Origin: a virus
Lineage: Duplodnaviria; Heunggongvirae; Uroviricota; Caudoviricetes
Virus record (IMG/VR): IMGVR_UViG_2690316156_000010
Length of the DNA stretch: 11,731 nt
Strand: one strand, 5' to 3'
The notes under the pieces: model-generated
Told to the model about the DNA's origin: nothing
Database searches by the model: none
What the model saw: the letters and a program-made list of their open reading frames with translations, nothing else
Shown: positions 1-11,731 of the stretch, one piece after another
Layout of the letters: the number at the start of each line of letters is the position of its first letter
Numbering within the stretch: the stretch's first letter is position 1
Made by a program: the position numbers and the translations under genes

Positions 1-486
1 ATGGGTGGCGCGGTAAACCAGACTACGATCAATAATGGAGTGCTACAGGTTTATGGCGCGGCGACTGATCCCACGATTAAAGGAGGGCGCGGTGATGCGG
101 CATTTACGTTGGGCAATGCCGGAAGCGTTGTTGATATCAGTACGTATGAATATACCTTGCTGGATAATGGCAACCATAGCTGGAGTCTCGCAGAGAATCG
201 CGTACAAATGCCCCCTTCAACCACGGATGTGCTGAATATGGCGGCAGCACAACCGCTGGTATTTGATGCAGAACTGGACACCGTGCGTGGGCGTCTTGGT
301 AGCGTAAAAGGCGTTAATTACGATACGGCGATGTGGAGTTCGGTAATTAACAGCCGCAACAACGTGAACACTGATGCGGGAGCTGGCTTTGAGCAAACAT
401 TGACGGGCCTGACGCTCGGTATCGACAGCCGTTTCTCCCGTGAAGAAAGCAGCACAACTCAGGCGGGTGTGGTCTGGACGTTCTGA
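1..486 (+). pseudogene. Autotransporter (AIDA-I/Ag43-type) C-terminal remnant; ORF enters from beyond the window start and appears internally deleted
   Basis: Translation shows the passenger/linker-to-barrel junction (…AAAQPLVFDAELDTVRGRLGSV…MWSSVINSRNN…GLTLGIDSRF) then jumps to a barrel-end-like …VVWTF and stops, with the ~250 aa beta-barrel body missing. The Met at position 1 is probably internal. Confidence 0.4.
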
Positions 487-498
487 TAACAGAAAATA

Positions 499-530
499 AA
501 CAGGCCGTGATGTGTCGCGGTCTGTTTATC
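499..530 (+). terminator. Rho-independent terminator after the autotransporter remnant
   Basis: Hairpin AACAGGCCG (499-507) / CGGTCTGTT (518-526), one G-U pair, followed by TTTAT. Confidence 0.45.
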
Positions 531-552
531 GAATTAAATGCAGATATAAAAA

Positions 553-579
553 AACCAACCGCAATAGGTTGGTTTTCTT
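553..579. terminator. Hairpin with flanking A and T runs (possible bidirectional terminator)
   Basis: AACCAACC (553-560), loop gcaatag, GGTTGGTT (568-575), then TTTTCTT; A-run immediately upstream. Confidence 0.4.
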
Positions 580-784
580 GGGATTCACGAGAGTAGTTTA
601 ATTTAGCGTGTAACCGCATGATTTTAATAAATATTATTGATTCAACTTTTAAACCGTATAACCAAACGTATAACTAAAATAATTTGCTGAAAAAATGCAC
701 AATTTAAACGGCGATTGCCCTAGCGACTTCCATGATTCTACCTGGATTTTTTTCGCTCATTCGTTTTTAAGCTGGTGGATGTTC

Positions 785-810
785 CCCGATATGGTGATCA
801 CCATATCGGG
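785..810. repeat. 26-bp perfect palindrome
   Basis: CCCGATATGGTGA|TCACCATATCGGG is exactly self-complementary. Confidence 0.5.
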
Positions 811-1242
811 ATTTACGCCAGGTTAATGTTAACCTCTGCCCTGTTAACATTTTTACCAAAAAGGTAGTTAACATTTTTTGCTCGCAACCAGATGAATCAT
901 AAAGACAAAATCAACAACAACGCTTCATCAGGCAGTTAACATGTTAACTACTACGAAACGGTAATTTTTTCTCTGCGTGAGAGGGGGCGCGGTGTCCAGC
1001 TTATTCGTTGTTCGTGGCTAACCACTCCCCCCCCCATGCCGGATTTTTTTTCCGGTTAACTGTTAATCAGGCTGGTGGGTTTTACCTGTTCTGTAGGAGT
1101 GGTCATTATGACCATCCCTTATATCGTCCGAATGCCGGACGAAGGCACACATCAACCGTAACGAAAATCGTTATGGTTGCCTTGATGGTCTGCGTGGTCA
1201 TTATGACCATTCAGCCAATGACCTTAATCAGAATTTTTCGCT

Positions 1243-1265
1243 AAAAAATGACGTTGACCACGTCA
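1243..1265 (-). terminator. Candidate rho-independent terminator downstream of the 93-aa ORF
   Basis: Stem TGACGT (1249-1254) / ACGTCA (1260-1265), 5-nt loop; A6 on plus strand upstream gives a U6 tail on the minus transcript. Confidence 0.4.
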
Positions 1266-1336
1266 TCCGGAAAGCACAAAATCACGTCGATTTTTAATGG
1301 ATGGTTAAACCGTCTTTATCTCGATGTCCGTACGTA

Positions 1337-1618
1337 TTACGTACGCAGTCGTTCCGGCTTCTTCCAGTGGTACGTTATTTTCTCCTTCTCCCGATACATC
1401 TCCACGCGGCGACGGTAGGCCAGCAACTCAAGAACTCTGGTTCGTATGTTGCGCATATCCACGCCATTAAGTTCTATACCATCACGGCGCATCACCTCAG
1501 CAACAACACGCACATAATTTTCAGCGGTCACGCTGTCCGGCTGTGTGGCCTGTTCGTCATGCTGCTGGCTGATTCCGGTAACGCGGCGGATTAATCCCAG
1601 TAGTTCGGCTTCTGTCAT
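1337..1618 (-). CDS. Hypothetical protein, 93 aa
   Basis: ATG at 1618-1616 with a G-rich SD about 5 nt upstream; balanced charged/helical composition (MTEAELLGLIRRVTG…). The overlapping plus-strand ORF 1301-1594 is H/L-rich and less protein-like. It sits beyond the cosB side of the cos region, where a phage would carry terS. Confidence 0.45.
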   Translation of the reverse strand: MTEAELLGLIRRVTGISQQHDEQATQPDSVTAENYVRVVAEVMRRDGIELNGVDMRNIRTRVLELLAYRRRVEMYREKEKITYHWKKPERLRT

Positions 1619-1649
1619 TGTGCCCCCATCGCTCTGATAGTCTGGTGTC

Positions 1650-1716
1650 GTCGGGTCCTTCCTGGAATTATGGCCCGTTACGGGGCGGCGACCTCGCGGT
1701 TTTTCGCTATTTATGA
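1650..1716 (+). other. Lambda-type cos site, copy 1 (cosQ-like + cosN + truncated cosB)
   Basis: Reads CGGGTCCTTCCTGG…CCCGTTACG|GGGCGGCGACCT|CGCGGTTTTTCGCTATTTATGA. The 12-nt cohesive-end sequence GGGCGGCGACCT is at 1683-1694 and the flanks match the lambda cos junction as I recall it. No R-type repeats follow. Confidence 0.7.
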
Positions 1717-2052
1717 GATTTTTTGAGGGGGTGGTTGTTGTTTAATTGTTTGGTATATCTAATTGATAAGTAAGGTAAAAATAAAATAAATACAACAACC
1801 TTACGATGTATTTTGATGTCATTAATGTGAAAAAATTCAATGATATCAAATGGTTTTGTAAAAACACATGGTTGTTGTATCGCGTATTTGATGGCGTAAC
1901 AGAAAGTGATTTTTAACTTTACCGCTCTGTAACTACGGATTATTCCATGCTGGCACGGAGAACGGCTACGGCATGACGCCACCCAGCCTATACAGAACAG
2001 TAAAGCCGATAAATTGTTAATCACGCGCAGCAATGCGTGTGATTTTTGCACA

Positions 2053-2250
2053 CTTCCGGTTAACGGGTACGATGTCCGGTTTTAGTGTCTGTTTTTTGCG
2101 CATGTCCGGTTCATAGAAAGCATGTTTTTATATTTTTCATATGGTTAACTTGCAGAGAAACCGGACATGGATCCCGGAAAATTTTCATAAATAGTGAAAA
2201 CGCGCGAGGTCGCCGCCCCGTAACGGGTCCATATGCCGGAAAGGACCCGT
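2053..2250 (-). other. Lambda-type cos site, copy 2 (cosQ-like + cosN + full cosB-like region), inverted relative to copy 1
   Basis: Reverse complement of 2171-2260 reads ACGGGTCCTTTCCGGCATATGGACCCGTTACG|GGGCGGCGACCT|CGCGCGTTTTCACTATTTATGAAAATTTTCCGG. cosN is at 2207-2218 (AGGTCGCCGCCC on plus). Three copies of ATGTCCGGTT follow at 2159-2168 (inverted), 2102-2111 and 2072-2081, with an AT-rich stretch between the first two, as in an R3-I1-R2-R1 cosB. Confidence 0.8.
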
Positions 2251-2274
2251 AAAAAAAAGCCGGATTTCTCCGGC
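2251..2274 (-). terminator. Rho-independent terminator of the capsid operon
   Basis: GCCGGA (2259-2264), loop TTTC, TCCGGC (2269-2274); A8 on plus (2251-2258) gives a U8 tail on the minus transcript, 7 nt past the stop of the 137-aa ORF. Confidence 0.6.
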
Positions 2275-2280
2275 CTTGTC

Positions 2281-2694
2281 TCAGATGGTTTTCAGTATGT
2301 GATCGATGTCGCCGTCATCGCCCTGGTTTCTGCCATCGTATGCCATGCCAGCTGATACGGCTTGCGGGCTGTGCATGTCCATAAAGTTTTCAAAGGCTGC
2401 GGTAAGCTCTGGTGCAACCTTTGGGCGCTCCTGCTCTATGGTCATGTTCAGGATTTCACGAGCATTATCGACGCTAATACATGGCACGTTTGCCATTGCA
2501 CGTAACAGCGGCTGATAGTCGTTATGTTCATGAAGCGCCATAATCGCATCAGCGCGCGGCTTGTCCTGTTCTTCCAGTTTGTTGAGTTGATATACGGCCT
2601 CGTAGGTTGATAACCCTCTGTCAGCCATTGCCCGCGCTTCGGCTTTAAATTTACTCGCCAGCGGTAGCGCCATGATGCTTTCATTCGTTGCCAT
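2281..2694 (-). CDS. Hypothetical protein, 137 aa, last gene of the capsid operon (positionally like lambda gpFI; unverified)
   Basis: ATG at 2694-2692 with SD AGGGGGAA about 4 nt upstream, 12 nt after the gpD-like stop; acidic C-terminus. No motif-level similarity to lambda FI that I can confirm. Confidence 0.55.
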   Translation of the reverse strand: MATNESIMALPLASKFKAEARAMADRGLSTYEAVYQLNKLEEQDKPRADAIMALHEHNDYQPLLRAMANVPCISVDNAREILNMTIEQERPKVAPELTAAFENFMDMHSPQAVSAGMAYDGRNQGDDGDIDHILKTI

Positions 2695-2706
2695 CGTTCC
2701 CCCTGC

Positions 2707-3042
2707 TTATCGGGCCAGCGGCTGAACGGATACGCCAGAACCCGCAAAGGCGGCGCATTTTTTCGCATCGGTGTCGACGCTCTCAGGCCAGTTAACGGCG
2801 GCGATATTGAATATCCCCGTCTTATAGCACTGTGCTGATTTCTGCGTCGACGTGTCAACGGGGTACGAGGTCAGATAAACAGCCTTGCCAGATTCCTGAC
2901 CATCCCACGGCTTAAACTCGCCATTGTCCGCCAGCATCAGCGGGGTAAATTCCTGAATAACGCCAGCATCAGCGGCAAAATGTACCAGCGTCGTTGATAC
3001 CTGCTGACTGCCTGCAAATAACTCAATGTATGGAGTGTTCAT
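2707..3042 (-). CDS. Head decoration protein, lambda gpD-like (111 aa)
   Basis: Motifs TPLMLAD, KPWDG, WPE, KK.AAFAG align with lambda gpD as recalled; size matches (lambda gpD is 110 aa). I place the start at ATG 3042-3040 with SD GGTGGA; the track's start at 3051 is a GTG inside that SD. Confidence 0.75.
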   Translation of the reverse strand: MNTPYIELFAGSQQVSTTLVHFAADAGVIQEFTPLMLADNGEFKPWDGQESGKAVYLTSYPVDTSTQKSAQCYKTGIFNIAAVNWPESVDTDAKKCAAFAGSGVSVQPLAR

Positions 3043-3053
3043 AGAATCCACCG

Positions 3054-4109
3054 TTAACCAATTTTGACGGTAACAAATTTGCGAATATCTGCCGGAACAG
3101 GCTGCGGTGCGCTGTGTGTCTGCACGTACTCAATCGCCGGATCGCCGTCTTCAATCCAGTTTTTCGGGTAAAACATGTTTTGCGTTGCGCCCGTTCTTAC
3201 CGCTTCCTGTTCCATAATCGCACCATAGGCCACCAGCCCTTTATTGTTGGTGTTGCCCAGGACCAGCAAATCAGGCTCAAGGAAATATTTTTCTGTGCCG
3301 TCGCTGTCAGTGTATTTGCCGGAATAGACGATAAGGGCCAGATCACCAAGATAGCCTTTAAAGCTCACCACTTCTCCCAGGTTTTTACATGCCAGCTCTG
3401 CGGCGGATTCTGAACCACGGGAGAGATCGTACAGTTCACGGAATTTTTTAAAGCTGCGTAACATGCGCCATACATCAACGCCCATAATCATGACGTTTGC
3501 GGGGCAACCTGCCTGATCTGCGTATAGCTCAATGTCATAGATTGGGTCGTGTATGTCTTTGTCCTGCTCTGACCATTTTTTACCGTCGGCCTGCTCTATG
3601 ATGTTTTTTTCCGGTATCTTCCAGTCGATTTCATAGCGCTCTATGCCTTCGCCCTCAATGATGTTTTTTCCGGTCGTTACCGCATTTACCGCCAGCCATT
3701 CCACGCGCGCTTTAATGGCGTTTATCTGGCGGCGCATGTTGCCAGTAATCAGGCGCATACGGCGGTAGGTAGGGTCGTTAAGCTGTGCTGGATCTTCTCC
3801 AGCCATGCGCATTATTGTTTTTAATGGATCGATTTCGTGTTTTGGCTTCATGTAGCCAGGGCGAATAATGCTTGTTTCGTACCCTTTATCGCGCTGAACC
3901 TGGCTACCCACCATAGGCGAACAAAACGCCGACATAGTGACTTCTTCAATATCCAGGTTATCTAACATGATGTCCTGTGTGTTGAATGTCGCCACGTTCG
4001 GGAAAAACAGCGCGGTAAACAGCGGACTGAATTTAAATTCCGCAATATCCTCGCGATTCAGGTACGCAAAAAGCTGGTTAGTGTTAAGTGATATTGCTTT
4101 TACTGTCAT
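3054..4109 (-). CDS. Major capsid protein, lambda gpE family (351 aa)
   Basis: Shared blocks with lambda gpE from memory: FKFSPLFTALFFP vs FKFDPLFLRLFFR; PGYMKPKHEIDP vs PGYVKPKHEVNP; EDPAQLNDPTYRRMRLI vs DEDPQNLADPAYRRRRII; YPKNWIEDGDPAIEYVQTHSAP vs YPKNWVTTGDPAREFTMIQSAP. ATG at 4109-4107 with SD GGGGGTGA; length close to lambda gpE (341 aa). Confidence 0.9.
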   Translation of the reverse strand: MTVKAISLNTNQLFAYLNREDIAEFKFSPLFTALFFPNVATFNTQDIMLDNLDIEEVTMSAFCSPMVGSQVQRDKGYETSIIRPGYMKPKHEIDPLKTIMRMAGEDPAQLNDPTYRRMRLITGNMRRQINAIKARVEWLAVNAVTTGKNIIEGEGIERYEIDWKIPEKNIIEQADGKKWSEQDKDIHDPIYDIELYADQAGCPANVMIMGVDVWRMLRSFKKFRELYDLSRGSESAAELACKNLGEVVSFKGYLGDLALIVYSGKYTDSDGTEKYFLEPDLLVLGNTNNKGLVAYGAIMEQEAVRTGATQNMFYPKNWIEDGDPAIEYVQTHSAPQPVPADIRKFVTVKIG

Positions 4110-4315
4110 TATTCACCCCCGTGAACCTGATTCATACCCAGCGCCGCGCGTAAATAGGCGCGTACCTGCCAGCCTGTTGACGGCTCAACCATCGCCAGCG
4201 GATCAAGTCCTGCCGCAATGCCTGCTTTTACGTTCTGCTGGTGGCGTTCCTTGAGCGCCTTCACGATGTCGGGGCTTATGTACACCGAAACACCGCCTTT
4301 TTTCTCTTCAGCCAT
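4109..4315 (-). CDS. Hypothetical protein, 68 aa, first gene of the capsid operon
   Basis: ATG at 4315-4313 with SD AGAGGAA about 9 nt upstream; its TAA overlaps the capsid ATG (TAATG), indicating translational coupling. No recognisable family. Confidence 0.5.
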   Translation of the reverse strand: MAEEKKGGVSVYISPDIVKALKERHQQNVKAGIAAGLDPLAMVEPSTGWQVRAYLRAALGMNQVHGGE

Positions 4316-4350
4316 AGTAAGAAATTCCTCTTTGACTTAAAAAATCATAA

Positions 4351-4399
4351 CTGGATGTTCATCCAGATCTGATTATAATCATGATTGCATTTTATGCAA
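4351..4399 (-). promoter_or_regulatory. Sigma70-like promoter of the capsid operon with palindromic operator candidates
   Basis: On the minus strand TTGCAT (plus 4394-4399), 16-nt spacer, TATAAT (plus 4372-4377). The -35 lies inside the palindrome TTGCATTTTATGCAA (4385-4399); the predicted start region overlaps the palindrome CTGGATGTTCATCCAG (4351-4366). Confidence 0.5.
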
Positions 4400-4480
4400 T
4401 GATGTTGAGTTGTGTTGCAAATTATGAAATGATGATCCCGATCATGTGTGTCAGTGCGCCAAAAAAAACCTCATATGCAA

Positions 4481-4521
4481 AAGCCCGATAAGATGCCTCC
4501 TGTACTTATCGGGCTTTTTTT
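4481..4521. terminator. Long hairpin flanked by A and T runs (bidirectional terminator candidate)
   Basis: AAGCCCGATAAG (4481-4492), 12-nt loop, CTTATCGGGCTT (4505-4516); T7 downstream and A8 upstream on the plus strand. Confidence 0.5.
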
Positions 4522-4526
4522 GGGTA

Positions 4527-4550
4527 CAAAAAAGCCGGATTACTCCGGCT
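4527..4550 (-). terminator. Rho-independent terminator of the replication/accessory operon
   Basis: AGCCGGA (4533-4539), loop TTAC, TCCGGCT (4544-4550); A-run on plus gives a U6 tail on the minus transcript, 6 nt after the stop at 4556. Confidence 0.6.
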
Positions 4551-4555
4551 GTTGA

Positions 4556-4828
4556 TTAGCTGCCTGGGTAATTACGCCATATTTCATCGCTTACACCATC
4601 TATACCCATTTCAGCATAAGTGCGATCGACTGCCTTTCTCAGGTCTCCGAAGTTATCCGGCGGCTCCGGTGGCCTCTGTGCCTTCCTGGAACATTCCAGC
4701 CGTCGCATCGTAACCTGATGCCGTTCCTTGTCTGTCTCCACCAGCTGCATGACTTCACCCCATCGTGCCGCCGCCCTCCGGTAAAAGCCTTTTGCCTCGA
4801 GTTCCTCCGCTATGCGGTCATGTACCAT
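4556..4828 (-). CDS. Small regulator, possibly PerC/Pch family (90 aa; track shows a longer 130-aa form from 4948 that overlaps ssb)
   Basis: ATG at 4828-4826 sits 11 nt after the ssb stop with SD GAGGGGGTGAGG. AEELEAKGFYRRAAARWGEVMQL resembles the PerC/Pch signature as I remember it (…LE..G.WRRAA.RW…); the family call is tentative. Confidence 0.45.
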   Translation of the reverse strand: MVHDRIAEELEAKGFYRRAAARWGEVMQLVETDKERHQVTMRRLECSRKAQRPPEPPDNFGDLRKAVDRTYAEMGIDGVSDEIWRNYPGS

Positions 4829-4838
4829 CCTCACCCCC

Positions 4839-5249
4839 TCAGAACGGAATATCATCACCGTAAGGGTCATCGCCTCCCGCTGGTGGCTGATTACCCTGTG
4901 TGCCTGTGGTTTTGCGTCTGTTCCCGCCAGGACGTGCCGCACGGGCACTGATTACGCTGTCTGCAATAACCTGATAACCCTGCCGCGTTTCCCCGTTCTG
5001 TCCGGTCCACTGGCTGACCTGCATCGTGCCGGATACGCTGGCAACGTCGCCTTTTTGATGTTTAGCCAGGAAGTCGGCCTGCTTACCAAATGCCATCACC
5101 GATAGCCATAACGTAGCCTGCCCATCCTGCGCCTGACTACATGGCAACGATACCGCCATACGTGCCAGCGTCATTGGTGTGCCCTTGCTGGTCTGTTTTA
5201 CCTGCGGGTCGTCCACCAGCCGCCCGTAAGCCGCTATCTGTGCTGTCAT
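4839..5249 (-). CDS. ssb: Single-stranded DNA-binding protein, short phage/plasmid-type (136 aa)
   Basis: OB-fold-like N-terminal region, Gly/Pro/Gln-rich linker, and the characteristic acidic C-terminal tail …DDPYGDDIPF. ATG at 5249-5247 overlaps the upstream stop (ATGA). Confidence 0.85.
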   Translation of the reverse strand: MTAQIAAYGRLVDDPQVKQTSKGTPMTLARMAVSLPCSQAQDGQATLWLSVMAFGKQADFLAKHQKGDVASVSGTMQVSQWTGQNGETRQGYQVIADSVISARAARPGGNRRKTTGTQGNQPPAGGDDPYGDDIPF

Positions 5250-5524
5250 GCTGTCTGCTCTCCGGTTTTAACGTTGATGGTTGTTACCTGTTCCGCTTCT
5301 GCAATCTCCCGCTCTGTCAGCGTGGCAAAGTTTGCCGCCGCCGTGGTCATGAATGCGCTTATTAGTTCGGGATGTGCTTTCGAGTATCCTTCTCCCGCTG
5401 TGATGTCTATCACCTTTATAGCCACCTTTAAGGCGTGCTCTGTCATCTCCAGCGCTTTATATCTTGGTGCTGTTCTGTCTTTGCGTTTTTTGAGTGATTT
5501 GTTAAATCTTCCTGATGTGTGCAT
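5246..5524 (-). CDS. Hypothetical protein, 92 aa, basic N-terminus
   Basis: ATG at 5524-5522 directly downstream of the iteron region; stop overlaps the ssb start, so it is co-translated with ssb. No family recognised. Confidence 0.45.
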   Translation of the reverse strand: MHTSGRFNKSLKKRKDRTAPRYKALEMTEHALKVAIKVIDITAGEGYSKAHPELISAFMTTAAANFATLTEREIAEAEQVTTINVKTGEQTA

Positions 5525-5572
5525 TTTTATTTTTACTCTCGTGTTTAAAAAGTTTTAGGTTGTGGTGCACCT

Positions 5573-5797
5573 CCTCTACCTCTCTACCTAATCATCTTTC
5601 ATGTCAGTAATGGCGCGGCTTTCAGATGGGTAGAGGGCTTTCGTGGCCCTCTACCCATCCTCTACCCGCCCCTCACAAACGATCTTAATCATGGTAGAAG
5701 AGGTAGAGAGGTTTTATTAGCCTTCTACCTAGCCCTCTACCCACTTATCATGTTGAATAATATGCGTTTATTTCATTCAGGTGGATGGGGTAGAGGA
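5573..5797. repeat. Iteron array, putative replication origin
   Basis: About ten copies of CTCTACC / GGTAGAG in both orientations (for example 5573-5580, 5582-5588, 5628-5637, 5648-5657, 5659-5667, 5693-5711, 5721-5730, 5733-5742, 5787-5797), with AT-rich stretches at 5745-5780 and 5800-5820, immediately 3' of the primase gene. Confidence 0.65.
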
Positions 5798-5810
5798 CTT
5801 TTACAAAAAA

Positions 5811-7860: not shown

Positions 7861-8088
7861 TTATTCTCCGGTATGGGGCGAGTTATTATTCTCGTGAATT
7901 GCCATCACTGTATTTAATTCATTAATAACAGGCGTTAATAGCGTACGCACGGCAGAAAACATCATTGAATCAGATTCATCGCCACTTTCCGGCACATCAA
8001 TTAACTTAAGTAGTAATGCGTCCATTTCCTTTGCGAGGATTAATGCGTTTTCAGAATGAACAAGAACATCAAAGGGTATTTTATGCAT
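7861..8088 (-). CDS. Hypothetical protein, ~75 aa (track shows 7861-8190 from a start without a ribosome-binding site)
   Basis: ATG at 8088-8086 preceded by GGGGGGAG; this start overlaps the stop of the upstream ORF by 8 nt (ATGCATAA). Confidence 0.4.
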   Translation of the reverse strand: MHKIPFDVLVHSENALILAKEMDALLLKLIDVPESGDESDSMMFSAVRTLLTPVINELNTVMAIHENNNSPHTGE

Positions 8089-8545
8089 GACTCCCCCCCT
8101 GGCGAATACGGGCGACAAAAATAAGATGTGCGTGCGGCAGCTGTGCACGTGCTTCGCGCTCAGTGGCAGCGGTAACGGTGAATATTGCAATACTGTCTGT
8201 CAGGCACTGCATAAAGCGCCAGACAAAATAAGGGCGTGCGGATACAGCCATGTGAAAGGCTCCCAGATGAATTTTAAGGAGTCTCGCTACTACGCTGTCA
8301 AACATGGTGGCGAGACGTAACAGGGTTGACAGACTGGTCATCTGGAAACCAGCGAGCACAAAGGCTCCCCCGTTACGCCCCGCCATAATGCGGGTATGGG
8401 TAGGTTTACGGACACAAAAAAACCGCTTATCGGATGTGGGCGGCTGTCCGCCAGATGTATTCAGGCTGTCAAACCCGGTCGCCATGTGGGCGACGGGGGA
8501 AGCATACAGCCCCGTGATAATTTTTTGCAAGCGGTTTTTACGCAT
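8081..8545 (-). CDS. Repeat-unit ORF B (154 aa from ATG 8545) ending in an Icd-like small domain; an internal SD+ATG at 8251 could give an independent 56-aa product
   Basis: C-terminal 56 aa MAVSARPYFVWRF…TEREARAQLPHAHLIFVARIRQGGSHA is paralogous to two other copies; GGGAG lies 8 nt before the internal ATG at 8251. The ATG at 8545 overlaps the stop of ORF A. Icd-like assignment is from memory of similarly annotated small proteins in P4/PICI elements. Confidence 0.45.
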   Translation of the reverse strand: MRKNRLQKIITGLYASPVAHMATGFDSLNTSGGQPPTSDKRFFCVRKPTHTRIMAGRNGGAFVLAGFQMTSLSTLLRLATMFDSVVARLLKIHLGAFHMAVSARPYFVWRFMQCLTDSIAIFTVTAATEREARAQLPHAHLIFVARIRQGGSHA

Positions 8546-9095
8546 GATGTGACCCCTGACGAATACGAGCGGCAAATACAGCAACACAACCTGACGGGCA
8601 ACGGCTACGCGCTTCGCGTTCTGTCCAGGCGGTTACGTGGATGATTTGAGATTCTGACGCGCCAAAGATGATAAAGCGCCAGATAAATGCGGTTTGAGAA
8701 TGTACAAGGGTAGGGATAGTAGCCATGTTGGCAGCCTCCTCAGTGTGGTTAAGATAACCGCCACGCAAAAGGCTAATTTCGCTGGTGGCGGACTGTACAG
8801 GGTTAGCCTTACCGGACACTGAAGAAACCGGCGCGGATTGCTCCGCCCCCGTACAGCCCACCATTGATAAGGTGTGACTATGCGGCACAAAAAAACACGC
8901 GGGGCGCGTGCTGTGCGCTTCAGTTGTTTTCAGGAGGCTAATCCCGACACCCGTTTTATGAGGTGCGCGGGAATCATAGCCATTTTTGCTGGTGGCGATC
9001 AAGCGGTTTTTTTCTCCGGCACTCAGTGCCAGAAAACGCCACACAAAGGCCGTTTGTGTGTGTACAAGGTGTGGTATATGATTTACGGCAACCAT
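8538..9095 (-). CDS. Repeat-unit ORF A (185 aa from ATG 9095) carrying two Icd-like repeats; an internal SD+ATG at 8726 could give an independent 62-aa product
   Basis: N-terminal copy MVAVNHIPHLVHTQTAFVWRF (SD GGAG before 9095) and C-terminal copy MATIPTLVHSQTAFIWRF…TEREARSRC…FAARIRQGSHHA (SD GAGGAGG before 8726). Between the copies, differences are mostly synonymous in this frame (CAT/CAC, ACC/ACG, GCA/GCC, CGC/CGT) and non-synonymous in the plus frame, which supports minus-strand coding. Confidence 0.45.
   Translation of the reverse strand: MVAVNHIPHLVHTQTAFVWRFLALSAGEKNRLIATSKNGYDSRAPHKTGVGISLLKTTEAHSTRPACFFVPHSHTLSMVGCTGAEQSAPVSSVSGKANPVQSATSEISLLRGGYLNHTEEAANMATIPTLVHSQTAFIWRFIIFGASESQIIHVTAWTEREARSRCPSGCVAVFAARIRQGSHHA
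8889..8910 (-). terminator. Intrinsic-terminator-like hairpin plus U7 inside ORF A (possible attenuator)
   Basis: On the minus transcript CACGCG-CCC-CGCGUG followed by UUUUUUU (plus 8896-8910 with A7 at 8889-8895), about 190 nt after the ORF A start; the U-run encodes the conserved CFFV residues. Confidence 0.35.
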
Positions 9096-9104
9096 AACGG
9101 CTCC

Positions 9105-9224
9105 TAGTTTACGTTGTTGGTTAGAAGCCCCGTTACTGCTCCTACAGTGCGGGGCTTTGCTTTTTGTGTTGATTGTGTGTAATGTGTCATTACACATAAA
9201 TACATTACATGAGGTGTAATTAAC
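9105..9224. promoter_or_regulatory. Divergent control region between the RHH gene (plus) and the early/replication operon (minus), with operator-like palindromes
   Basis: Inverted repeat TGTGTAATG-N3-CATTACACA at 9176-9196, further half-sites CATTACA (9203-9209) and TGTAAT (9215-9220), and a 7-bp-stem hairpin at 9126-9156. I could not place convincing -35/-10 boxes. Confidence 0.45.
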
Positions 9225-9404
9225 GTGTCAACACACAAAAACGAAAGGCGTGGTAATCCTCCGTTCCAGTTCCGTTTAGATCCTGACTTACGGGAAAAGA
9301 TGGAAAAGGCACAACAACAGGACGGCGATGATTCTCTTGCTGCCTGGATAAAGCGAATAATCCGCAAAGAATTACAGCAACGCGGCATAGAACCCAAAGG
9401 ATAA
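9225..9404 (+). CDS. Arc/Mnt-type ribbon-helix-helix DNA-binding protein (59 aa, GTG start; not in the ORF track)
   Basis: GTG at 9225 with SD GAGGTG 8 nt upstream and an in-frame stop just before it; translation VSTHKNERRGNPPFQFRLDPDLREKMEKAQQQDGDDSLAAWIKRIIRKELQQRGIEPKG shows the beta-strand (FQFRL) then two helices typical of Arc/CopG-type repressors. The plus strand is purine-rich here, consistent with sense orientation. Confidence 0.6.
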   Translation: MSTHKNERRGNPPFQFRLDPDLREKMEKAQQQDGDDSLAAWIKRIIRKELQQRGIEPKG

Positions 9405-9461
9405 AAACTATCAGCGCCGTGGTGTGAGGTACTCCGGCGCATTGCTTTACAGGCGCACACA

Positions 9462-9638
9462 ATGACCAACGAAGAATCAACCGAAAAAACATCACCTGCA
9501 CGAAAAAGACGACGCAGAAAGAAAGAGCATGAATCAGAACGATTCGCGCCGTGTTCTTTTGCCCTTGAGAAGTACCTTAAAGAATACTCATCAAAGGAGA
9601 GAGCTTCGCAGTTATGGCAACGAACTGAACCAGACTGA
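9462..9638 (+). CDS. Possible small basic protein (58 aa) downstream of the RHH gene; coding status uncertain
   Basis: ATG at 9462, weak SD, Lys/Arg-rich N-terminus (ARKRRRRKK). An alternative plus frame (9529-9780) and an antisense ORF also exist, so the true product here is unresolved. Confidence 0.2.
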   Translation: MTNEESTEKTSPARKRRRRKKEHESERFAPCSFALEKYLKEYSSKERASQLWQRTEPD

Positions 9639-9734
9639 TTGCATTGCCCACCAGCCTGATAGCGGCTATCATCCCCGTGCTTATGTTTGGGATCACACAC
9701 ACAAACAGCGCAGCGGGTTATCTGTTCAGAAAGA

Positions 9735-9760
9735 CGGCTCCATATCGGGGCCGCTTTTTT
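9735..9760 (+). terminator. Candidate rho-independent terminator for the plus-strand RHH transcript
   Basis: CGGCTCC (9735-9741), loop ATATC, GGGGCCG (9747-9753), then TTTTTT (9755-9760). Confidence 0.4.
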
Positions 9761-9786
9761 CGTGTTTGTCATATCTGTGATACCCG

Positions 9787-9993
9787 TTAAGCAGCCGTTC
9801 CGCGTGCTTCCTCTTCGCGTTCTTTCTGCCAGGACAACACATCATCCTCATACCATCCGCGACGGCGTAAACCAACGCGAAAACCCTGCGGAAATTCTCC
9901 GGCGTTGATCATGCTTTGCAGCGTGCTGTCTGCCTTGATGTGGATAATTTTTTTTACTTCCTGGCGAAAGATAATTTTTCTGATTGCTTCCAT
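9787..9993 (-). CDS. alpA: AlpA-family (MerR-like HTH) transcriptional regulator, 68 aa
   Basis: …IRKIIFRQEV…STLQSMINAGEFPQGFRVGLRRRGWYEDDVLSWQ matches the AlpA pattern (…FP.p.klg.R.v.W.e.ev..W…) and the position just downstream of int is typical for PICI-type islands. ATG at 9993-9991. Confidence 0.7.
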   Translation of the reverse strand: MEAIRKIIFRQEVKKIIHIKADSTLQSMINAGEFPQGFRVGLRRRGWYEDDVLSWQKEREEEARGTAA

Positions 9994-10123
9994 CGTGATT
10001 TACCTTGTGAATCCGGTGTATTCCGGTGACAAATACGGTAAATCATCAGATATGGGTAAAAACAGTTCCCACCGTTTTTAAACGGTATACACCGTTTTTT
10101 ATATTGATGATTTGAAATGGAAT

Positions 10124-10150
10124 TATAAAAAAAGCGGCATTTCTGCCGCT
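10124..10150 (-). terminator. Rho-independent terminator after the int-proximal small ORF
   Basis: AGCGGCA (10133-10139), loop TTTC, TGCCGCT (10144-10150); A-run on plus gives a U7 tail on the minus transcript. Confidence 0.55.
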
Positions 10151-10160
10151 TCCAGGATTG

Positions 10161-10412
10161 TTACCGCCATTTTTTGGGCCTGCCTCCGATCTTCATAGAT
10201 GCCGGACGTACGACCTTATCAATACTTACCGCCAGATTTCTGGAAGCGCCACGGGATACCAGAAAATCTACTACCTGTTTTTTTGATGGGGCCGTCGTTC
10301 TGTCCTCCGGATCGTAGGTTGACCAAAATTCATGCTGAACCATCAGGGCCAGTTGCAGCCCGTCGCAATTGCATCTGATATTTTTTTGCATCTTAACGGT
10401 TTCATGTTTCAC
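10161..10412 (-). CDS. Hypothetical protein, 83 aa, between int and alpA (GTG start at 10412; ATG alternative at 10391)
   Basis: ORF followed immediately by a clean terminator; first codon is GTG on checking the sequence. No family recognised. Confidence 0.4.
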   Translation of the reverse strand: MKHETVKMQKNIRCNCDGLQLALMVQHEFWSTYDPEDRTTAPSKKQVVDFLVSRGASRNLAVSIDKVVRPASMKIGGRPKKWR

Positions 10413-10489
10413 GGCCTTGTCGTTAAATTTGATGCAATTATACGACGGTTTTACATGGTTTTCGTAGTTTTTACTGGTTTTCTGTACAG

Positions 10490-11731
10490 CTACACGGCTC
10501 GGATACCCCTTTTACCACTGGCGAGGGTTACGCCCGTCGCCGCAGCCTCGACAAATTCGCCCCACCAGCGCATCAGCACGATGCGTTTTTCTATGTAGTT
10601 GCTCCGGTTGTATGCCCGTCTAACTTCGTTGGTGTCGACGTGGGCAAGTGCCGCCTCTATTACGTCCGGCTCGAATCCTTCCTCGTTCGCTGCTGTGCTG
10701 AATATGGCGCGTAATCCATGAGACACCAGCACGCCAGCGAATCCCATACGCCGCAATGCTGCGTTAGCTGTCTGGCTGTTCATCGGCTGCTGTGGGTCTT
10801 TCAGACTTGGGAAAACGTAATTGCGGTGGTGGCTGATTGGTTTCATGGCCTCCAGCACCGCCATAGCCTGACCGGAAAGCGGGATAACGTGATCCCTGCG
10901 CATCTTCATGCGTCCGGCAGGTATCGTCCATTGCTTCGCGTCCAGGTTGATTTCATCCCACCGCGTTGATGACGCTTCGGCGGGACGGGTTACGGTCAGT
11001 AACTGCCATTCAATCAGTAATCTGGTCTGCCGTTCTGTTGCCGATACTGATAAAGCCTGCATAAGCTCGGGCAGCTGTTCGGGGCGGATTGTTGGCATAT
11101 GTTTTTTTACAGGTGAGGGAAACGCCTTACGCACATTCATAGCCGGATTGGCATCAATCAGCCCACTGTTGGCGGCGTAATCCATTACCTCATTAACGCG
11201 CTGTAAAACCCGCTTGAGTGTTTCCAGGTTGCCGCGCTCCTTGATGGGGGTAAGCACTTCAACGAACCTTCGGGCGGTGAGGGTATCTATTGGCGTGTTG
11301 CCGATGAACGGGAATACATATTTATCCAGCGAACGCCAGATGTCTTTAATCGTGTTGGGGGCCAGATTCTGGCTGATTTTCACCTGGTACCATGCCGCCG
11401 CCACATTTTCGAACGTGTTCCCTTGTCTTCGGGCCTCTGTCTCTCTTTTTTGCCTCTCGTGGTCCTGCGGGTCAGTTCCGGCACTGATTAACGTCCTGTA
11501 CTCGCTACGGCGTTTTCTGGCATCAGCCAGGGAAACATCTTCAAGCGATCCAAAACTCAGCAATATTCTTTTTTTGTCCGATGGTCGGTAGTAGGAAAAT
11601 CTCCAGAGTTTTGATCCAGACGGTTTGACCAGGAGAAAAAGCCCTCCGCCGTCCTGCAGGGTGTACTCCTTTTGCGCTGGTCTGGCTGCTTTGATCTGCA
11701 CTGTGGTTAATGGGTGTGTTTTTCTCGCCAT
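10490..11731 (-). CDS. int: Tyrosine recombinase / integrase, P4-type (413 aa)
   Basis: N-terminal arm-binding-like region (…LFLLVKPSGSKLWRFSYY…) and C-terminal catalytic motifs (HGLRAIF = H-x-x-R; RRAYNRSNY with the Tyr). The ATG is the last three bases of the window, so the attachment site and tRNA are outside it. Confidence 0.9.
   Translation of the reverse strand: MARKTHPLTTVQIKAARPAQKEYTLQDGGGLFLLVKPSGSKLWRFSYYRPSDKKRILLSFGSLEDVSLADARKRRSEYRTLISAGTDPQDHERQKRETEARRQGNTFENVAAAWYQVKISQNLAPNTIKDIWRSLDKYVFPFIGNTPIDTLTARRFVEVLTPIKERGNLETLKRVLQRVNEVMDYAANSGLIDANPAMNVRKAFPSPVKKHMPTIRPEQLPELMQALSVSATERQTRLLIEWQLLTVTRPAEASSTRWDEINLDAKQWTIPAGRMKMRRDHVIPLSGQAMAVLEAMKPISHHRNYVFPSLKDPQQPMNSQTANAALRRMGFAGVLVSHGLRAIFSTAANEEGFEPDVIEAALAHVDTNEVRRAYNRSNYIEKRIVLMRWWGEFVEAAATGVTLASGKRGIRAV

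What the first reader, a model, noticed from the sequence alone, without database searches (positions are those of the whole stretch)
8081..9095. Tandemly duplicated small-ORF block with three Icd-like paralogs and read-through frames
Three copies of a ~56-62-aa unit (M-A-x…V-H-[ST]-Q-T-A-F-[VI]-W-R-F … T-E-R-E-A-R … F-[VA]-A-R-I-R-Q-G) each have their own Shine-Dalgarno sequence, yet the reading frames run through so that two long ORFs (185 and 154 aa) contain them. Substitutions between copies are mostly synonymous in the minus frame. Linker segments between copies are also related (RFFCVRKPTHTRIMAG vs ACFFVPHSHTLSMVG). This looks like a recently expanded small-protein family at the head of the replication operon, where division-inhibitor or helper-interference genes are found in related elements.
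Basis: seen in the sequence. Interest (0 to 1): 0.55.

Follow-up and report, generated by a model that had tools for sequence, protein, structure and literature searches.

The report
Two stacked P4-type RNA immunity switches
The "three small-protein copies with read-through frames" are two complete copies, in tandem, of the known antisense-RNA immunity switch of satellite phage P4 and phage P1. Each copy has its own recognition code, which makes this an unusual doubled version of a known system and not a new protein family.

Summary
The sequence observation holds. On the minus strand there are three SD-preceded starts, at 9095, 8726 and 8251, and two long ORFs of 185 and 154 aa.

- **Icd-like units.** Only two units are complete Icd-like proteins (NF033153, the family that also holds P4 Kil and P1 Icd). 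The third is the first 28 codons of an Icd-like gene fused in frame to the long ORF.
- **"Linkers".** They are RNA genes. Each module has a promoter-like site, a seqA/isrK-type leader with terminator, a C4/CI antisense RNA, and a second target pair overlapping the Shine-Dalgarno of the Icd-like ORF.
- **Recognition codes.** The two C4 RNAs carry different two-part codes: ACUGAAG + UUAGCCU versus CAUCUGG + UUGACAG. Each code is matched upstream and downstream. Across 45 unique related modules the code co-varies at all three sites.
- **Long frames.** They correspond to P4's eta/kil nesting, where translating through the RNA gene bypasses immunity. The frame is kept open in relatives.
- **Age and frequency.** The modules are about 55% identical, so the duplication is old. 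The tandem form occurs in 22 of 5426 complete E. coli genomes.

Verdict: a known mechanism in a new variant (stacked, heterospecific). Interest is moderate.

The parts
9015..9095 (-). Head of long ORF1. SD GGAG (9104-9101) and ATG 9095, followed by the first 27-28 codons of an Icd-like gene (MVAVNHIPHLVHTQTAFVWRFLALSAGE), fused in frame to KNRLIAT...
   Evidence: The same head precedes a full-length 65-aa Icd-like gene in L004, L045, L047 and L051. The fragment alone gives no NF033153 hit.
8538..9095 (-). Long ORF1 (185 aa), eta-like. It reads through promoter-like site 1, the isrK/seqA leader, the terminator, C4-1 and Icd-like-1.
   Evidence: Pfam Phage_ASH at 44 bits covers residues 74-167, which is nt 8978-8697. 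phrog_29966 matches end to end at 379 bits. The frame is open in relatives.
8973..9002 (-). Internal sigma-70-like promoter 1 (TTGATC N18 TATGAT), at the position equivalent to P4 PLE.
   Evidence: P4 has TTGCCT N18 TATAGT at the equivalent place, just before its isrK hit.
8890..8966 (-). Leader 1, a seqA/IsrK-type RNA. It has two hairpins, upstream targets b (8941-8935, UUAGCCU) and a (8924-8918, ACUGAAG), and an intrinsic terminator (8912-8894 plus a U-run).
   Evidence: Rfam isrK at 61.8 bits against a gathering score of 50. Complementarity. Terminator.
8781..8868 (-). C4-1 antisense RNA (P4 CI-like). Specificity loop a' is CUUCAGU and junction b' is AAGGCUAA.
   Evidence: Rfam C4 at 75.4 bits against a gathering score of 45. 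Structure covariation.
8732..8776 (-). Downstream targets of C4-1: b (8776-8769, UUAGCCUU) and a (8746-8732, ACACUGAGGAGGCUG). The a site covers the SD of Icd-like-1.
8538..8726 (-). Icd-like-1 (62 aa), a homologue of P4 Kil and P1 Icd.
   Evidence: NF033153 at 59.6 bits. Orthologues have pN/pS 0.28 overall and 0.15 in the C-terminal half. 98 homologous protein clusters were returned, most of those that carry a source name being called Icd-like.
8081..8545 (-). Long ORF2 (154 aa), eta-like. Its ATG 8545 overlaps the stop of Icd-like-1 (ATGCGTAA). It reads through the module-2 RNA elements and Icd-like-2.
   Evidence: PGAP annotates this long form as 'Icd-like protein' in NZ_CP145707.
8501..8530 (-). 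Internal promoter-like site 2 (TTGCAA N18 TATGCT, 8 of 12 matches), positionally homologous to promoter 1 and to P4 PLE.
   Evidence: It falls below the threshold of the scan.
8416..8507 (-). Leader 2. It carries a1b1-type hairpins with upstream targets b (8472-8466, UUGACAG) and a (8457-8451, CAUCUGG), then a weak terminator-like hairpin plus U7 (8444-8416).
   Evidence: Rfam c4-a1b1 at 46.8 bits against a gathering score of 46.7. Complementarity. Fold.
8303..8390 (-). C4-2 antisense RNA. Loop a' is CCAGAUG(A) and junction b' is CUGUCAA.
   Evidence: Rfam C4 at 72.6 bits..
8258..8301 (-). Downstream targets of C4-2: b (8301-8295, UUGACAG) and a (8270-8258, UCAUCUGGGAGCC). The a site covers the SD of Icd-like-2.
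8081..8251 (-). Icd-like-2 (56 aa). Its stop overlaps the ATG (8088) of the next gene (ATGCATAA).
   Evidence: NF033153 at 53.7 bits. pN/pS is 0.10 in the C-terminal half. Sequence.

Best explanation
Region 9095-8081 (minus strand) holds two tandem copies of the P4-type (P1 immI-type) RNA immunity module. They sit at the head of the replication operon of a PICI/P4-like satellite of E. coli.

**Parts of each module, in order**
- an internal constitutive promoter;
- a short leader (seqA/IsrK type) carrying two target boxes (b, a) and a terminator;
- an 88-nt C4/CI antisense RNA, released by processing;
- a second b/a target pair whose a-box covers the Shine-Dalgarno of a small Icd/Kil-like ORF.

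**Immune state (inferred from P4 and P1).** Each C4 RNA pairs with its own targets. This blocks translation of its Icd-like ORF, and transcription stops before the replication genes.

**Two locks.** The two C4 RNAs have different two-part codes, so the operon lies behind two independent locks. The resident element should also repress incoming elements of either code.

**Bypass (inferred).** The long ORFs are the counterpart of P4 eta, with Kil/Icd nested at the 3' end.
- Transcripts from the upstream regulated promoter are translated from ATG 9095 straight through leader 1, terminator 1 and C4-1.
- Ribosomes then reinitiate at ATG 8545, which overlaps the stop of Icd-like-1.
- They read through module 2 and couple into the next gene at 8088.
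- In this way both locks are bypassed.

**What is shown and what is inferred.** Shown here: the RNA family hits, the three-site code covariation, protein-level selection on the Icd-like ORFs, and conservation of the reading frame. Inferred: promoter use, RNA processing, the mode of termination, the translational bypass, and the division-inhibitor activity.
For: - **RNA family hits.** Rfam gathering-score hits are C4 x2, isrK and c4-a1b1, in collinear order.
- **P4 has the same layout.** Its isrK hit is at 8692-8615 and its C4 hit at 8507-8420. The 65-aa ORF 54 nt downstream scores 76 bits on NF033153. A P1-like phage also has C4, a 54-nt gap, then Icd.
- **Complementarity at fixed offsets.** Each C4 loop/junction has perfect 7-15 nt complements upstream and downstream in M1, M2 and P4.
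- **Covariation.** In 45 unique modules from 80 IMG/VR loci, the many a- and b-variants co-vary at all three sites while the scaffold stays constant. For the a-loop core, cognate pairs give a mean summed match of 14.6 nt against 8.4 for non-cognate pairs.
- **C4 fold.** 93.9% of cells are paired, against 38-48% in slid controls, and 13 pairs show double changes.
- **Frame conservation.**
  - The Icd frame is open for at least 174 nt upstream in every module, while the other two frames close within 12-276 nt.
  - Indels in module 2 are net zero in 10 of 11 variants.
  - Stops are avoided in the hypervariable blocks in frame 0: 1 observed against 4.5 expected, compared with 13 and 5 in the other frames.
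- **Promoter-like sites** occur at homologous positions in P4, M1 and M2.
- **Purifying selection** acts on both Icd-like ORFs.
- **Literature.** PMC10111431 describes P4 eta/kil/CI/seqA and notes C4 and isrK hits in Gram-negative PICIs. PMC4825925 equates IsrK with P4 SeqA.
Against: - No expression data exist for this element.
- The module-2 promoter matches only 8 of 12 positions. Its terminator is weak, and in RNAfold it forms only when the a-site is blocked.
- ORF2 has no Pfam hit.
- In one relative (L042) a 1-nt deletion breaks the ORF2 frame. In the Stx phage the frame is shorter.
- The related modules share ancestry, so the frame and stop statistics are not independent samples.
- Unlike P4, the alpA homologue is about 700 nt upstream with an opposite-strand gene in between. 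Coupling of the eta-like ORF to alpA therefore does not apply here.
- The activity of these particular Icd-like proteins is untested. The fold search gave nothing.
Confidence: 0.8

Rival explanations
1. First reader's view. This is a recently expanded family of three small Icd-like protein genes. The linkers are coding, and the long ORFs (or the three short ORFs) are the only functional products.
For: - Two units hit NF033153.
- All three have an SD and an ATG.
- The long ORFs are called as proteins in databases: Pfam Phage_ASH, phrog_29966, and the PGAP 154-aa 'Icd-like' protein.
Against: - The linkers are Rfam C4, isrK and a1b1 with strong structural and three-site covariation.
- Single-base indels between the modules destroy protein-level similarity while the RNA architecture is preserved.
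- Unit 3 is only a 28-codon fragment.
- DNA identity of about 55% and a saturated dS mean the duplication is not recent.
Confidence: 0.05
2. The RNA modules and the short Icd-like ORFs are functional, but the long read-through ORFs are not translated. They are open only because GC-rich structured RNA genes seldom contain stop codons.
For: - ORF2 has no Pfam hit.
- L042 and the Stx phage have interrupted frames.
- PGAP treats ORF1 as a pseudogene fragment.
- Very long upstream 'open' frames in relatives look like antisense shadow ORFs.
Against: - Only the Icd frame is open in every lineage. The other two frames close within 12-276 nt.
- Indels are net zero.
- Stops are avoided in the hypervariable blocks only in frame 0, with P about 0.005 (rough).
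- The ATG of ORF2 overlaps the Icd-1 stop in the same ATGNNTAA arrangement used for the next operon gene.
- Eta translation has been shown experimentally in P4 (Forti et al. 1999, as summarised in PMC10111431).
Confidence: 0.25
3. One of the two modules is a decaying relic of a duplication or recombination event. Only one lock is active.
For: - Module 2 has a weaker promoter match and a weaker terminator.
- The tandem form is rare, at 22 of 5426 genomes.
Against: - Both modules keep perfect a and b complementarity at both target pairs.
- Both Icd-like ORFs are under purifying selection.
- Module-2 specificity variants keep co-varying at three sites in many loci, including a recent specificity swap between the window and E. 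coli S1-CAM-02-A.
- The same module-1 type is found combined with at least four module-2 types.
Confidence: 0.12

Closest known systems
Satellite phage P4 immunity region (PLE - seqA - cI/CI RNA - seqC - kil nested in eta)
   Same: The order and spacing match: promoter-like site, isrK-type leader with U-run terminator, C4-type RNA, a 54-nt (51-nt in module 2) leader, then a 56-65-aa NF033153 ORF. The recognition is two-part and matched both upstream and downstream. The downstream a-box covers the SD. The small ORF is the 3' end of a long ORF that overlays the RNA gene. Its stop overlaps the start of the next gene. Replication genes (primase) lie downstream.
   Different: Here the module is present twice in tandem with different codes. 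Long ORF1 starts with a fragment of another Icd-like gene and has its own SD, so it is not coupled to the alpA/vis homologue. The element carries lambda E/D-like capsid genes and lacks sid, psu and delta. Sequence identity to P4 is low outside the RNA scaffold.
Phage P1/P7 immI operon (a1 b1 - c4 - a2 b2 - icd - ant)
   Same: A C4 RNA with a'/b' elements, targets on both sides, and a2/b2 masking the ribosome-binding site of icd. Icd belongs to the same NCBIfam family. A P1-like phage has the same 54-nt C4-to-Icd spacing.
   Different: No antirepressor (ant) gene follows. The next genes are a 75-aa unknown, DUF4222 and a primase. P1 has a single module.
Salmonella Gifsy-1 IsrK / STnc1160 locus and Stx-phage isrK-C4 loci
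   Same: An IsrK-type leader RNA with a terminator, followed by a C4-type RNA on the same transcript.
   Different: In those phages the downstream gene is a Rha/Ant-type regulator or orf45-anrP, not an Icd-like ORF. There is a single module.
Gram-negative PICIs / HE-PICIs with CI and seqA homologues in their 'Bro zone' (PMC10111431)
   Same: The element type is the same: integrase, alpA, primase, SSB and a lambda E-like capsid gene. That paper already notes that Rfam C4 and isrK hit these islands, inside Phage_ASH/eta-like genes.
   Different: That paper does not describe tandem modules, the two-part code, its covariation, or the Icd-fragment head.

Membership tests
NCBIfam NF033153 phage_ICD_like (P1 Icd / P4 Kil family) | HMM score above the curated cut-off of 25 bits | tested here: met
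   Unit at 8726-8538 scores 59.6 bits and unit at 8251-8081 scores 53.7 bits. For comparison, P4 Kil scores 76.1 and P1-like Icd 49.8.
NCBIfam NF033153 phage_ICD_like (third unit, ATG 9095) | HMM score above the cut-off; presence of the conserved C-terminal TEREAR...ARIRQG half | tested here: not met
   No hit. Only residues 1-28 are Icd-like, and the rest is the translation of the leader and C4.
NCBIfam NF033153 phage_ICD_like | Inhibition of cell division, or killing on overexpression | not testable with these tools
   Known for P1 Icd and P4 Kil from the literature. The AF2 model (pLDDT 71) has no significant PDB neighbour.
Rfam RF01695 C4 antisense RNA (includes P4 CI RNA) | Covariance-model score above the gathering score of 45, full-length match | tested here: met
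   75.4 and 72.6 bits, model positions 1-87 of 87.
Rfam RF01695 C4 antisense RNA | Long closing stem plus two inner hairpins, supported by compensatory changes | tested here: met
   93.9% of cells paired against 38-48% in slid controls. 13 pairs have changes on both sides. 0 of 500 shuffles reach the observed value.
Rfam RF01695 C4 antisense RNA | Single-stranded a'/b' elements complementary to targets on the same transcript, upstream and downstream | tested here: met
   perfect 7-15 nt matches at fixed offsets, co-varying across relatives.
Rfam RF01695 C4 antisense RNA | Release from the primary transcript by RNase P / PNPase processing | not testable with these tools
   Needs RNA analysis.
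Rfam RF01394 isrK / RF03163 c4-a1b1 (P4 seqA-type leader) | Score above the gathering threshold, located upstream of C4 on the same strand | tested here: met
   isrK scores 61.8 against 50 for module 1. c4-a1b1 scores 46.8 against 46.7 for module 2, which is borderline.
P4-type immunity system | Small kil-type ORF nested in frame at the 3' end of a long ORF (eta) that overlays the RNA gene | tested here: met
   The 185-aa and 154-aa ORFs. The frame is conserved in relatives. In P4 the same frame is open for 456 nt and starts at a triple ATG.
P4-type immunity system | Constitutive promoter inside the long ORF, just upstream of seqA | tested here: inconclusive
   Consensus matches at homologous positions: 9 of 12 for module 1, 8 of 12 for module 2, 9 of 12 for P4. 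No transcript data.
P4-type immunity system | [quoted passage not shown] | tested here: not met
   The alpA-like gene (9993-9787) lies about 700 nt upstream, with a + strand gene (9225-9404) in between. ORF1 has its own SD and ATG.
P4-type immunity system | CI-dependent premature (Rho-dependent or antisense-dependent) termination | not testable with these tools
   Only fold predictions are available. Terminator 1 is constitutive. Terminator 2 forms when the a-site is blocked.
P1 immI operon | Antirepressor gene (ant) translationally coupled downstream of icd | tested here: not met
   The next ORF is a 75-aa protein of unknown function (phrog_2196), with no ANT or Rha domain.
Pfam PF10554 Phage_ASH | HMM score above the gathering score of 26 | tested here: met
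   ORF1 scores 44.1 bits over residues 74-167, which is nt 8978-8697 and so overlies isrK and C4-1. ORF2 gives no hit. The old P4 'cI protein' ORF scores 59.7 bits.

The most novel reading that the evidence does not exclude
The two heterospecific RNA locks work in series as a combinatorial 'barcode' immunity.

- The resident satellite would repress, and be repressed by, elements of two different immunity types.
- The eta-like ORFs, chained by stop/start overlaps, would form a single translational master key that opens both locks on induction.
- Module number (0, 1 or 2) and code would be shuffled between satellites by recombination within the constant C4 scaffold and the Icd-like genes. Two observations fit this. 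One is the 320-bp patch that swaps the code between the window and E. coli S1-CAM-02-A. The other is the set of Icd chimeras.
- The result would be an RNA-based exclusion system with diversifying selection among satellites.
Probability: 0.35. Interest if true: 0.6.

Novelty: new variant of a known kind. Interest (0 to 1): 0.42.

Why it matters
P4 and P1 antisense-RNA immunity is a classic system that has been treated as a single module per element.

**What this locus adds**
- Modules can be stacked, each with an orthogonal code.
- The recognition code sits in two short blocks that co-vary at three sites on a constant scaffold.
- The long overlapping ORF is kept open even through the hypervariable blocks.

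**What that makes testable**
- The rules of RNA-based heteroimmunity among the very common E. coli satellites.
- The P4 idea that translating through an RNA gene overrides immunity.

**Annotation problem**
- 'Ash family protein', the long 'Icd-like' calls and the PHROG 'transcriptional repressor' families overlie unannotated RNA genes.
- PGAP annotates no ncRNA at this locus.

Tried and rejected
- **Genome-contig scan** with the Icd alignment found only one locus, so it was not useful for diversity. IMG/VR gave 80 loci instead.
- **tblastn of Icd-like-1 against the phage collection** found one record. The family is mostly in prophages and satellites, not in deposited phage genomes.
- **RNAduplex over long flanks** gave messy though cognate-favouring energies. 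I replaced it with ungapped complement scans.
- **AlphaFold2 and Foldseek on Icd-like-1.** The model is a small beta-beta-alpha-beta fold with pLDDT 71, and no PDB match had E<0.1. No functional inference was drawn.
- **Original P4 papers** (Forti 1999, Sabbattini 1995) are not held in the library. Their content is taken from PMC10111431 and PMC4825925 and from my own knowledge.
- **Several literature searches** returned only irrelevant hits.
- **Possibility considered and rejected:** that very long (380-757 aa) upstream extensions of the frame in some relatives are real Eta-like proteins. Their translations look like antisense shadows of + strand genes.
- **No paper describing tandem C4/CI modules** turned up. 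The held library is incomplete, so this is not proof that none exists.
Full report
**1. The observation**

On the minus strand, ATG 9095 opens a 185-aa ORF that ends at 8538. ATG 8545 opens a 154-aa ORF that ends at 8081. Three ATGs (9095, 8726, 8251) are preceded by GGAG, GAGGAGG and GGGAG.

- The units starting at 8726 (62 aa) and 8251 (56 aa) are 48% identical. Both hit NCBIfam NF033153 'host cell division inhibitor Icd-like protein', at 59.6 and 53.7 bits against a cut-off of 25.
- The unit at 9095 resembles unit 1 (BLASTP E=2e-10), and only its first 27-28 residues are Icd-like. It gives no HMM hit.
- So the coordinates, the SDs, the long frames and the family guess are correct. There are two complete copies plus one fragment, not three paralogs.

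**2. What lies between the units**

| Feature | Coordinates | Bits (gathering score) |
|---|---|---|
| isrK | 8966-8890 | 61.8 (50) |
| C4 antisense RNA | 8868-8781 | 75.4 (45) |
| c4-a1b1 | 8507-8458 | 46.8 (46.7) |
| C4 antisense RNA | 8390-8303 | 72.6 (45) |

- The related 'linker peptides' (RFFCVRKPTHTRIMAG / ACFFVPHSHTLSMVG) are the translation of a terminator U-run plus the 5' arm of the C4 stem.
- Downstream of that point the two C4 genes differ by single-base indels. Protein similarity is then lost while the RNA architecture is kept.

**3. The same layout in P4 and P1**

- In P4 (NC_001609) isrK hits 8692-8615 and C4 hits 8507-8420, the known CI RNA region.
- The old P4 'cI protein' CDS (8584-8168) hits Pfam Phage_ASH. 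Its last 65 codons begin 54 nt after C4 and score 76 bits on NF033153. This ORF is P4 Kil.
- In a P1-like phage, C4 is followed after 54 nt by the 73-aa Icd, which belongs to the same family.
- PMC4825925 states that IsrK is a structural homologue of P4 SeqA RNA.
- PMC10111431 summarises the P4 mechanism:
  - A constitutive promoter lies inside eta.
  - CI and seqA cause early termination.
  - Kil is a truncated Eta.
  - Translation of full-length eta from an upstream late promoter prevents termination.
- That paper also notes that Rfam C4 and isrK hit Gram-negative PICIs.
- The 'read-through frames' are therefore the known eta/kil nesting.

**4. The recognition code**

Each C4 has a hairpin loop (a') and a junction (b'). 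Ungapped complement scans show perfect matches for both, at an upstream pair and at a downstream pair.

| Module | b box | a box (upstream) | a box (downstream, covers SD) |
|---|---|---|---|
| 1 | UUAGCCU at 8941-8935; UUAGCCUU at 8776-8769 | ACUGAAG, 8924-8918 | ACACUGAGGAGGCUG, 8746-8732 |
| 2 | UUGACAG at 8472-8466 and 8301-8295 | CAUCUGG, 8457-8451 | UCAUCUGGGAGCC, 8270-8258 |
| P4 | GUGAGAA | UUCACAGG | same offsets |

- The codes of modules 1 and 2 are unrelated, so the two RNAs should be orthogonal. This is inferred from sequence.
- A covariance model built from four C4 sequences found 63 hits in 85 sources.
- The scaffold is almost invariant within each type. The a' and b' blocks are hypervariable.
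- In 45 unique modules the upstream and downstream targets change together with the loop, at fixed offsets.
- The C4 fold itself has 13 pairs with double changes. 93.9% of cells are paired, against 38-48% in slid controls.

**5. Are the small ORFs real proteins?**

Among orthologues, pN/pS is 0.28 for type 1 and 0.36 for type 2. It falls to 0.15 and 0.10 in the C-terminal half that contains TEREAR...ARIRQG. Icd-like genes also occur with no C4 nearby, for example in L004 and L051. A protein search returned 98 homologous clusters, and most of those that carry a source name are called Icd-like. The two full units are therefore genuine coding genes.

Between the two window copies there are more non-synonymous than synonymous differences (49 against 24). 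Per site pS still exceeds pN, and dS is saturated. The modules are about 55% identical at the DNA level in every segment. The duplication is old, not recent.

**6. Are the long frames meaningful?**

- In every module examined, P4 and an Stx phage included, the frame of the downstream ORF stays open for 174-2271 nt upstream. The other two frames close within 12-276 nt.
- Among module-2 variants there are +1/-1 indels in the a-up box, the terminator loop and the C4 loop. They cancel in 10 of 11 variants. One (L042) is frameshifted.
- I replaced the co-varying blocks by random sequence. About 4.5 of 16 distinct codes should then carry a stop in the Icd frame. One does (the Stx phage), against 13 and 5 in the other frames. 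This is a rough test and the samples are not independent.
- ATG 8545 overlaps the stop of Icd-like-1 (ATGCGTAA). The same 8-nt overlap links Icd-like-2 to the next gene (ATGCATAA), and it links P4 kil to epsilon.
- I conclude that the long ORFs are probably translated under some conditions, as eta is in P4. This is not shown for this element.

**7. The third unit**

The sequence from about 9230 to 9015 is the standard head of these operons. In L004, L045, L047 and L051 it precedes a full 65-aa Icd-like gene, MVAVNHIPHLVHTQTAFVWRFLALSAGESQIIHVTAWTEREAR... (P0012, P0014 and P0016).

- In the window, codon 28 is joined in frame to KNRLIAT... This is the start of the eta-like ORF, which in module 2 begins as MRKNRLQK at the stop/start overlap.
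- Other relatives have a different and shorter Icd-derived head (MLNHTTHPQG...).
- The family thus follows a grammar: head promoter, then an Icd-like gene (full or truncated), then n modules of [eta-like start, promoter, seqA leader, terminator, C4, seqC/SD, Icd-like], with n = 0, 1 or 2.
- Chimeric Icd proteins (P0084, P0086, P0087) point to unequal crossing-over.
- A 320-bp patch (8140-8456) holds all 27 differences between the window and E. coli S1-CAM-02-A. Thirteen of them lie in the three a-blocks. This points to patch recombination that swaps the code.

**8. Promoters and terminators**

- A sigma-70-like site, TTGATC N18 TATGAT, lies at 9002-8973, just before the 5' end of isrK.
- P4 has TTGCCT N18 TATAGT at the homologous place. 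Module 2 has TTGCAA N18 TATGCT, matching 8 of 12 positions.
- Terminator 1 (8912-8894 plus U7) forms constitutively in RNAfold, as in P4.
- In module 2 a competing hairpin (GGCGG/CCGCC) overlaps the a-up box. The U7-terminated hairpin appears only when the target boxes are blocked. This hints at C4-dependent termination, but the idea is speculative.

**9. Context and frequency**

The window is 97.9% identical over 8000-9250 to an island in E. coli S1-CAM-02-A. That island is integrated at tRNA-Pro next to yejM. It carries an integrase, an alpA-like gene, a primase, SSB, a PerC-like regulator, and lambda E/D-like capsid and decoration genes.

PGAP annotates 'ash family protein (pseudo)', a 62-aa Icd-like protein and a 154-aa 'Icd-like' protein, and no ncRNA. 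A span covering both C4 genes is at least 80% covered in 22 of 5426 complete E. coli genomes. 2945 genomes have some match. In the IMG/VR sample, 11 loci (besides the window itself and L001) have two C4 genes. Within an island the two codes always differ, and one module-1 type is combined with at least four module-2 types.

**10. Verdict**

The mechanism class is known: P4 CI/seqA/seqC with kil in eta, and P1 c4-icd. Its presence in Gram-negative PICIs has been noted before.

What I could not find described is the following:
- the tandem, heterospecific stacking of modules;
- the Icd-fragment head;
- the quantitative three-site covariation;
- the conservation of the reading frame.

I classify this as a new variant of a known kind, of moderate interest.

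Noticed in passing
window 9177-9220 (+), between ORF1 head (ATG 9095, -) and the 59-aa gene 9225-9404 (+): There is a perfect palindrome GTGTAATG-TGT-CATTACAC (9177-9195), plus further TGTAAT/ATTACA half-sites. It looks like the operator of a divergent promoter pair. The 59-aa + strand product is weakly Arc-like (phrog_228) and is called YlcI/YnfO family in other genomes. It may be the protein regulator of the upstream, immunity-insensitive promoter.
   Followed up: partly
window 9104-9772 (-); L013, L014, L017, L021 upstream of module 1: A 222-aa minus-strand ORF lies antisense to small + strand genes. In relatives the equivalent antisense frame stays open for 380-757 codons and runs in frame into the eta-like ORF. 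The translations are S/C-rich with a repeated 'HHGADS.YS.SLALRRW' motif. It is probably a shadow ORF of tandem + strand paralogs, but it is strikingly long.
   Followed up: partly
window 8140-8456 vs L001 (NZ_CP145707): All 27 differences in 1252 aligned bases fall within this 320-bp patch. Thirteen lie in the three a-specificity blocks of module 2, and compensating +1/-1 indels occur in the a-up box and the terminator loop. This is a recombination patch that changes the immunity code between otherwise identical islands.
   Followed up: yes
Pfam PF10554 Phage_ASH; phrog_29966, phrog_1743, phrog_6196; RefSeq P4 'cI gene product' CDS (L003 8168-8584): These protein families and annotations ('Ash family protein', 'transcriptional repressor') are built on ORFs that overlie the isrK/C4 RNA genes, or on Kil/Icd itself. 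This is a legacy of the old P4 'cI protein' annotation. PGAP annotates no C4 or isrK RNA at this locus.
   Followed up: partly
proteins P0084, P0086, P0087: These are chimeric Icd-like proteins. They have the N-terminal two-thirds of the head type and the C-terminus of the module-2 type, joined at the conserved TEREAR motif. This is consistent with unequal crossing-over that deletes a whole module.
   Followed up: no
window about 8174-8203 (codons 17-26 of Icd-like-2) and orthologues: A central segment of Icd-like-2 is hypervariable at the protein level (LTDSIAIF / HHSSIDIY / QEKQTSLF / HGKNIRLH). Its pN/pS is 0.76, against 0.10 in the C-terminal half. The cause is unknown.
   Followed up: partly
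L004, L051-L063 and similar loci: Full-length Icd-like genes with the same head sequence occur with no C4 or isrK RNA at all, in a Shigella flexneri chromosome (L004) and in IMG/VR viral contigs, several of them about 50 kb long. The small protein therefore does not depend on the RNA module.
   Followed up: partly
window 1-5800 and 9787-11731: The host element is a PICI-like island at tRNA-Pro/yejM that ends in a yejO autotransporter pseudogene. It has a lambda E-like major capsid gene (4109-3054), a D-like decoration gene, a PerC-family regulator, SSB, a primase, an alpA-like gene and an integrase.
   Followed up: partly
window 9120-9165: A GC-rich hairpin (GCCCCG...CGGGGC) is followed by a T-run on the + strand. 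It is terminator-like for transcription running antisense to the immunity modules, and it is conserved in the heads of related loci.
   Followed up: no
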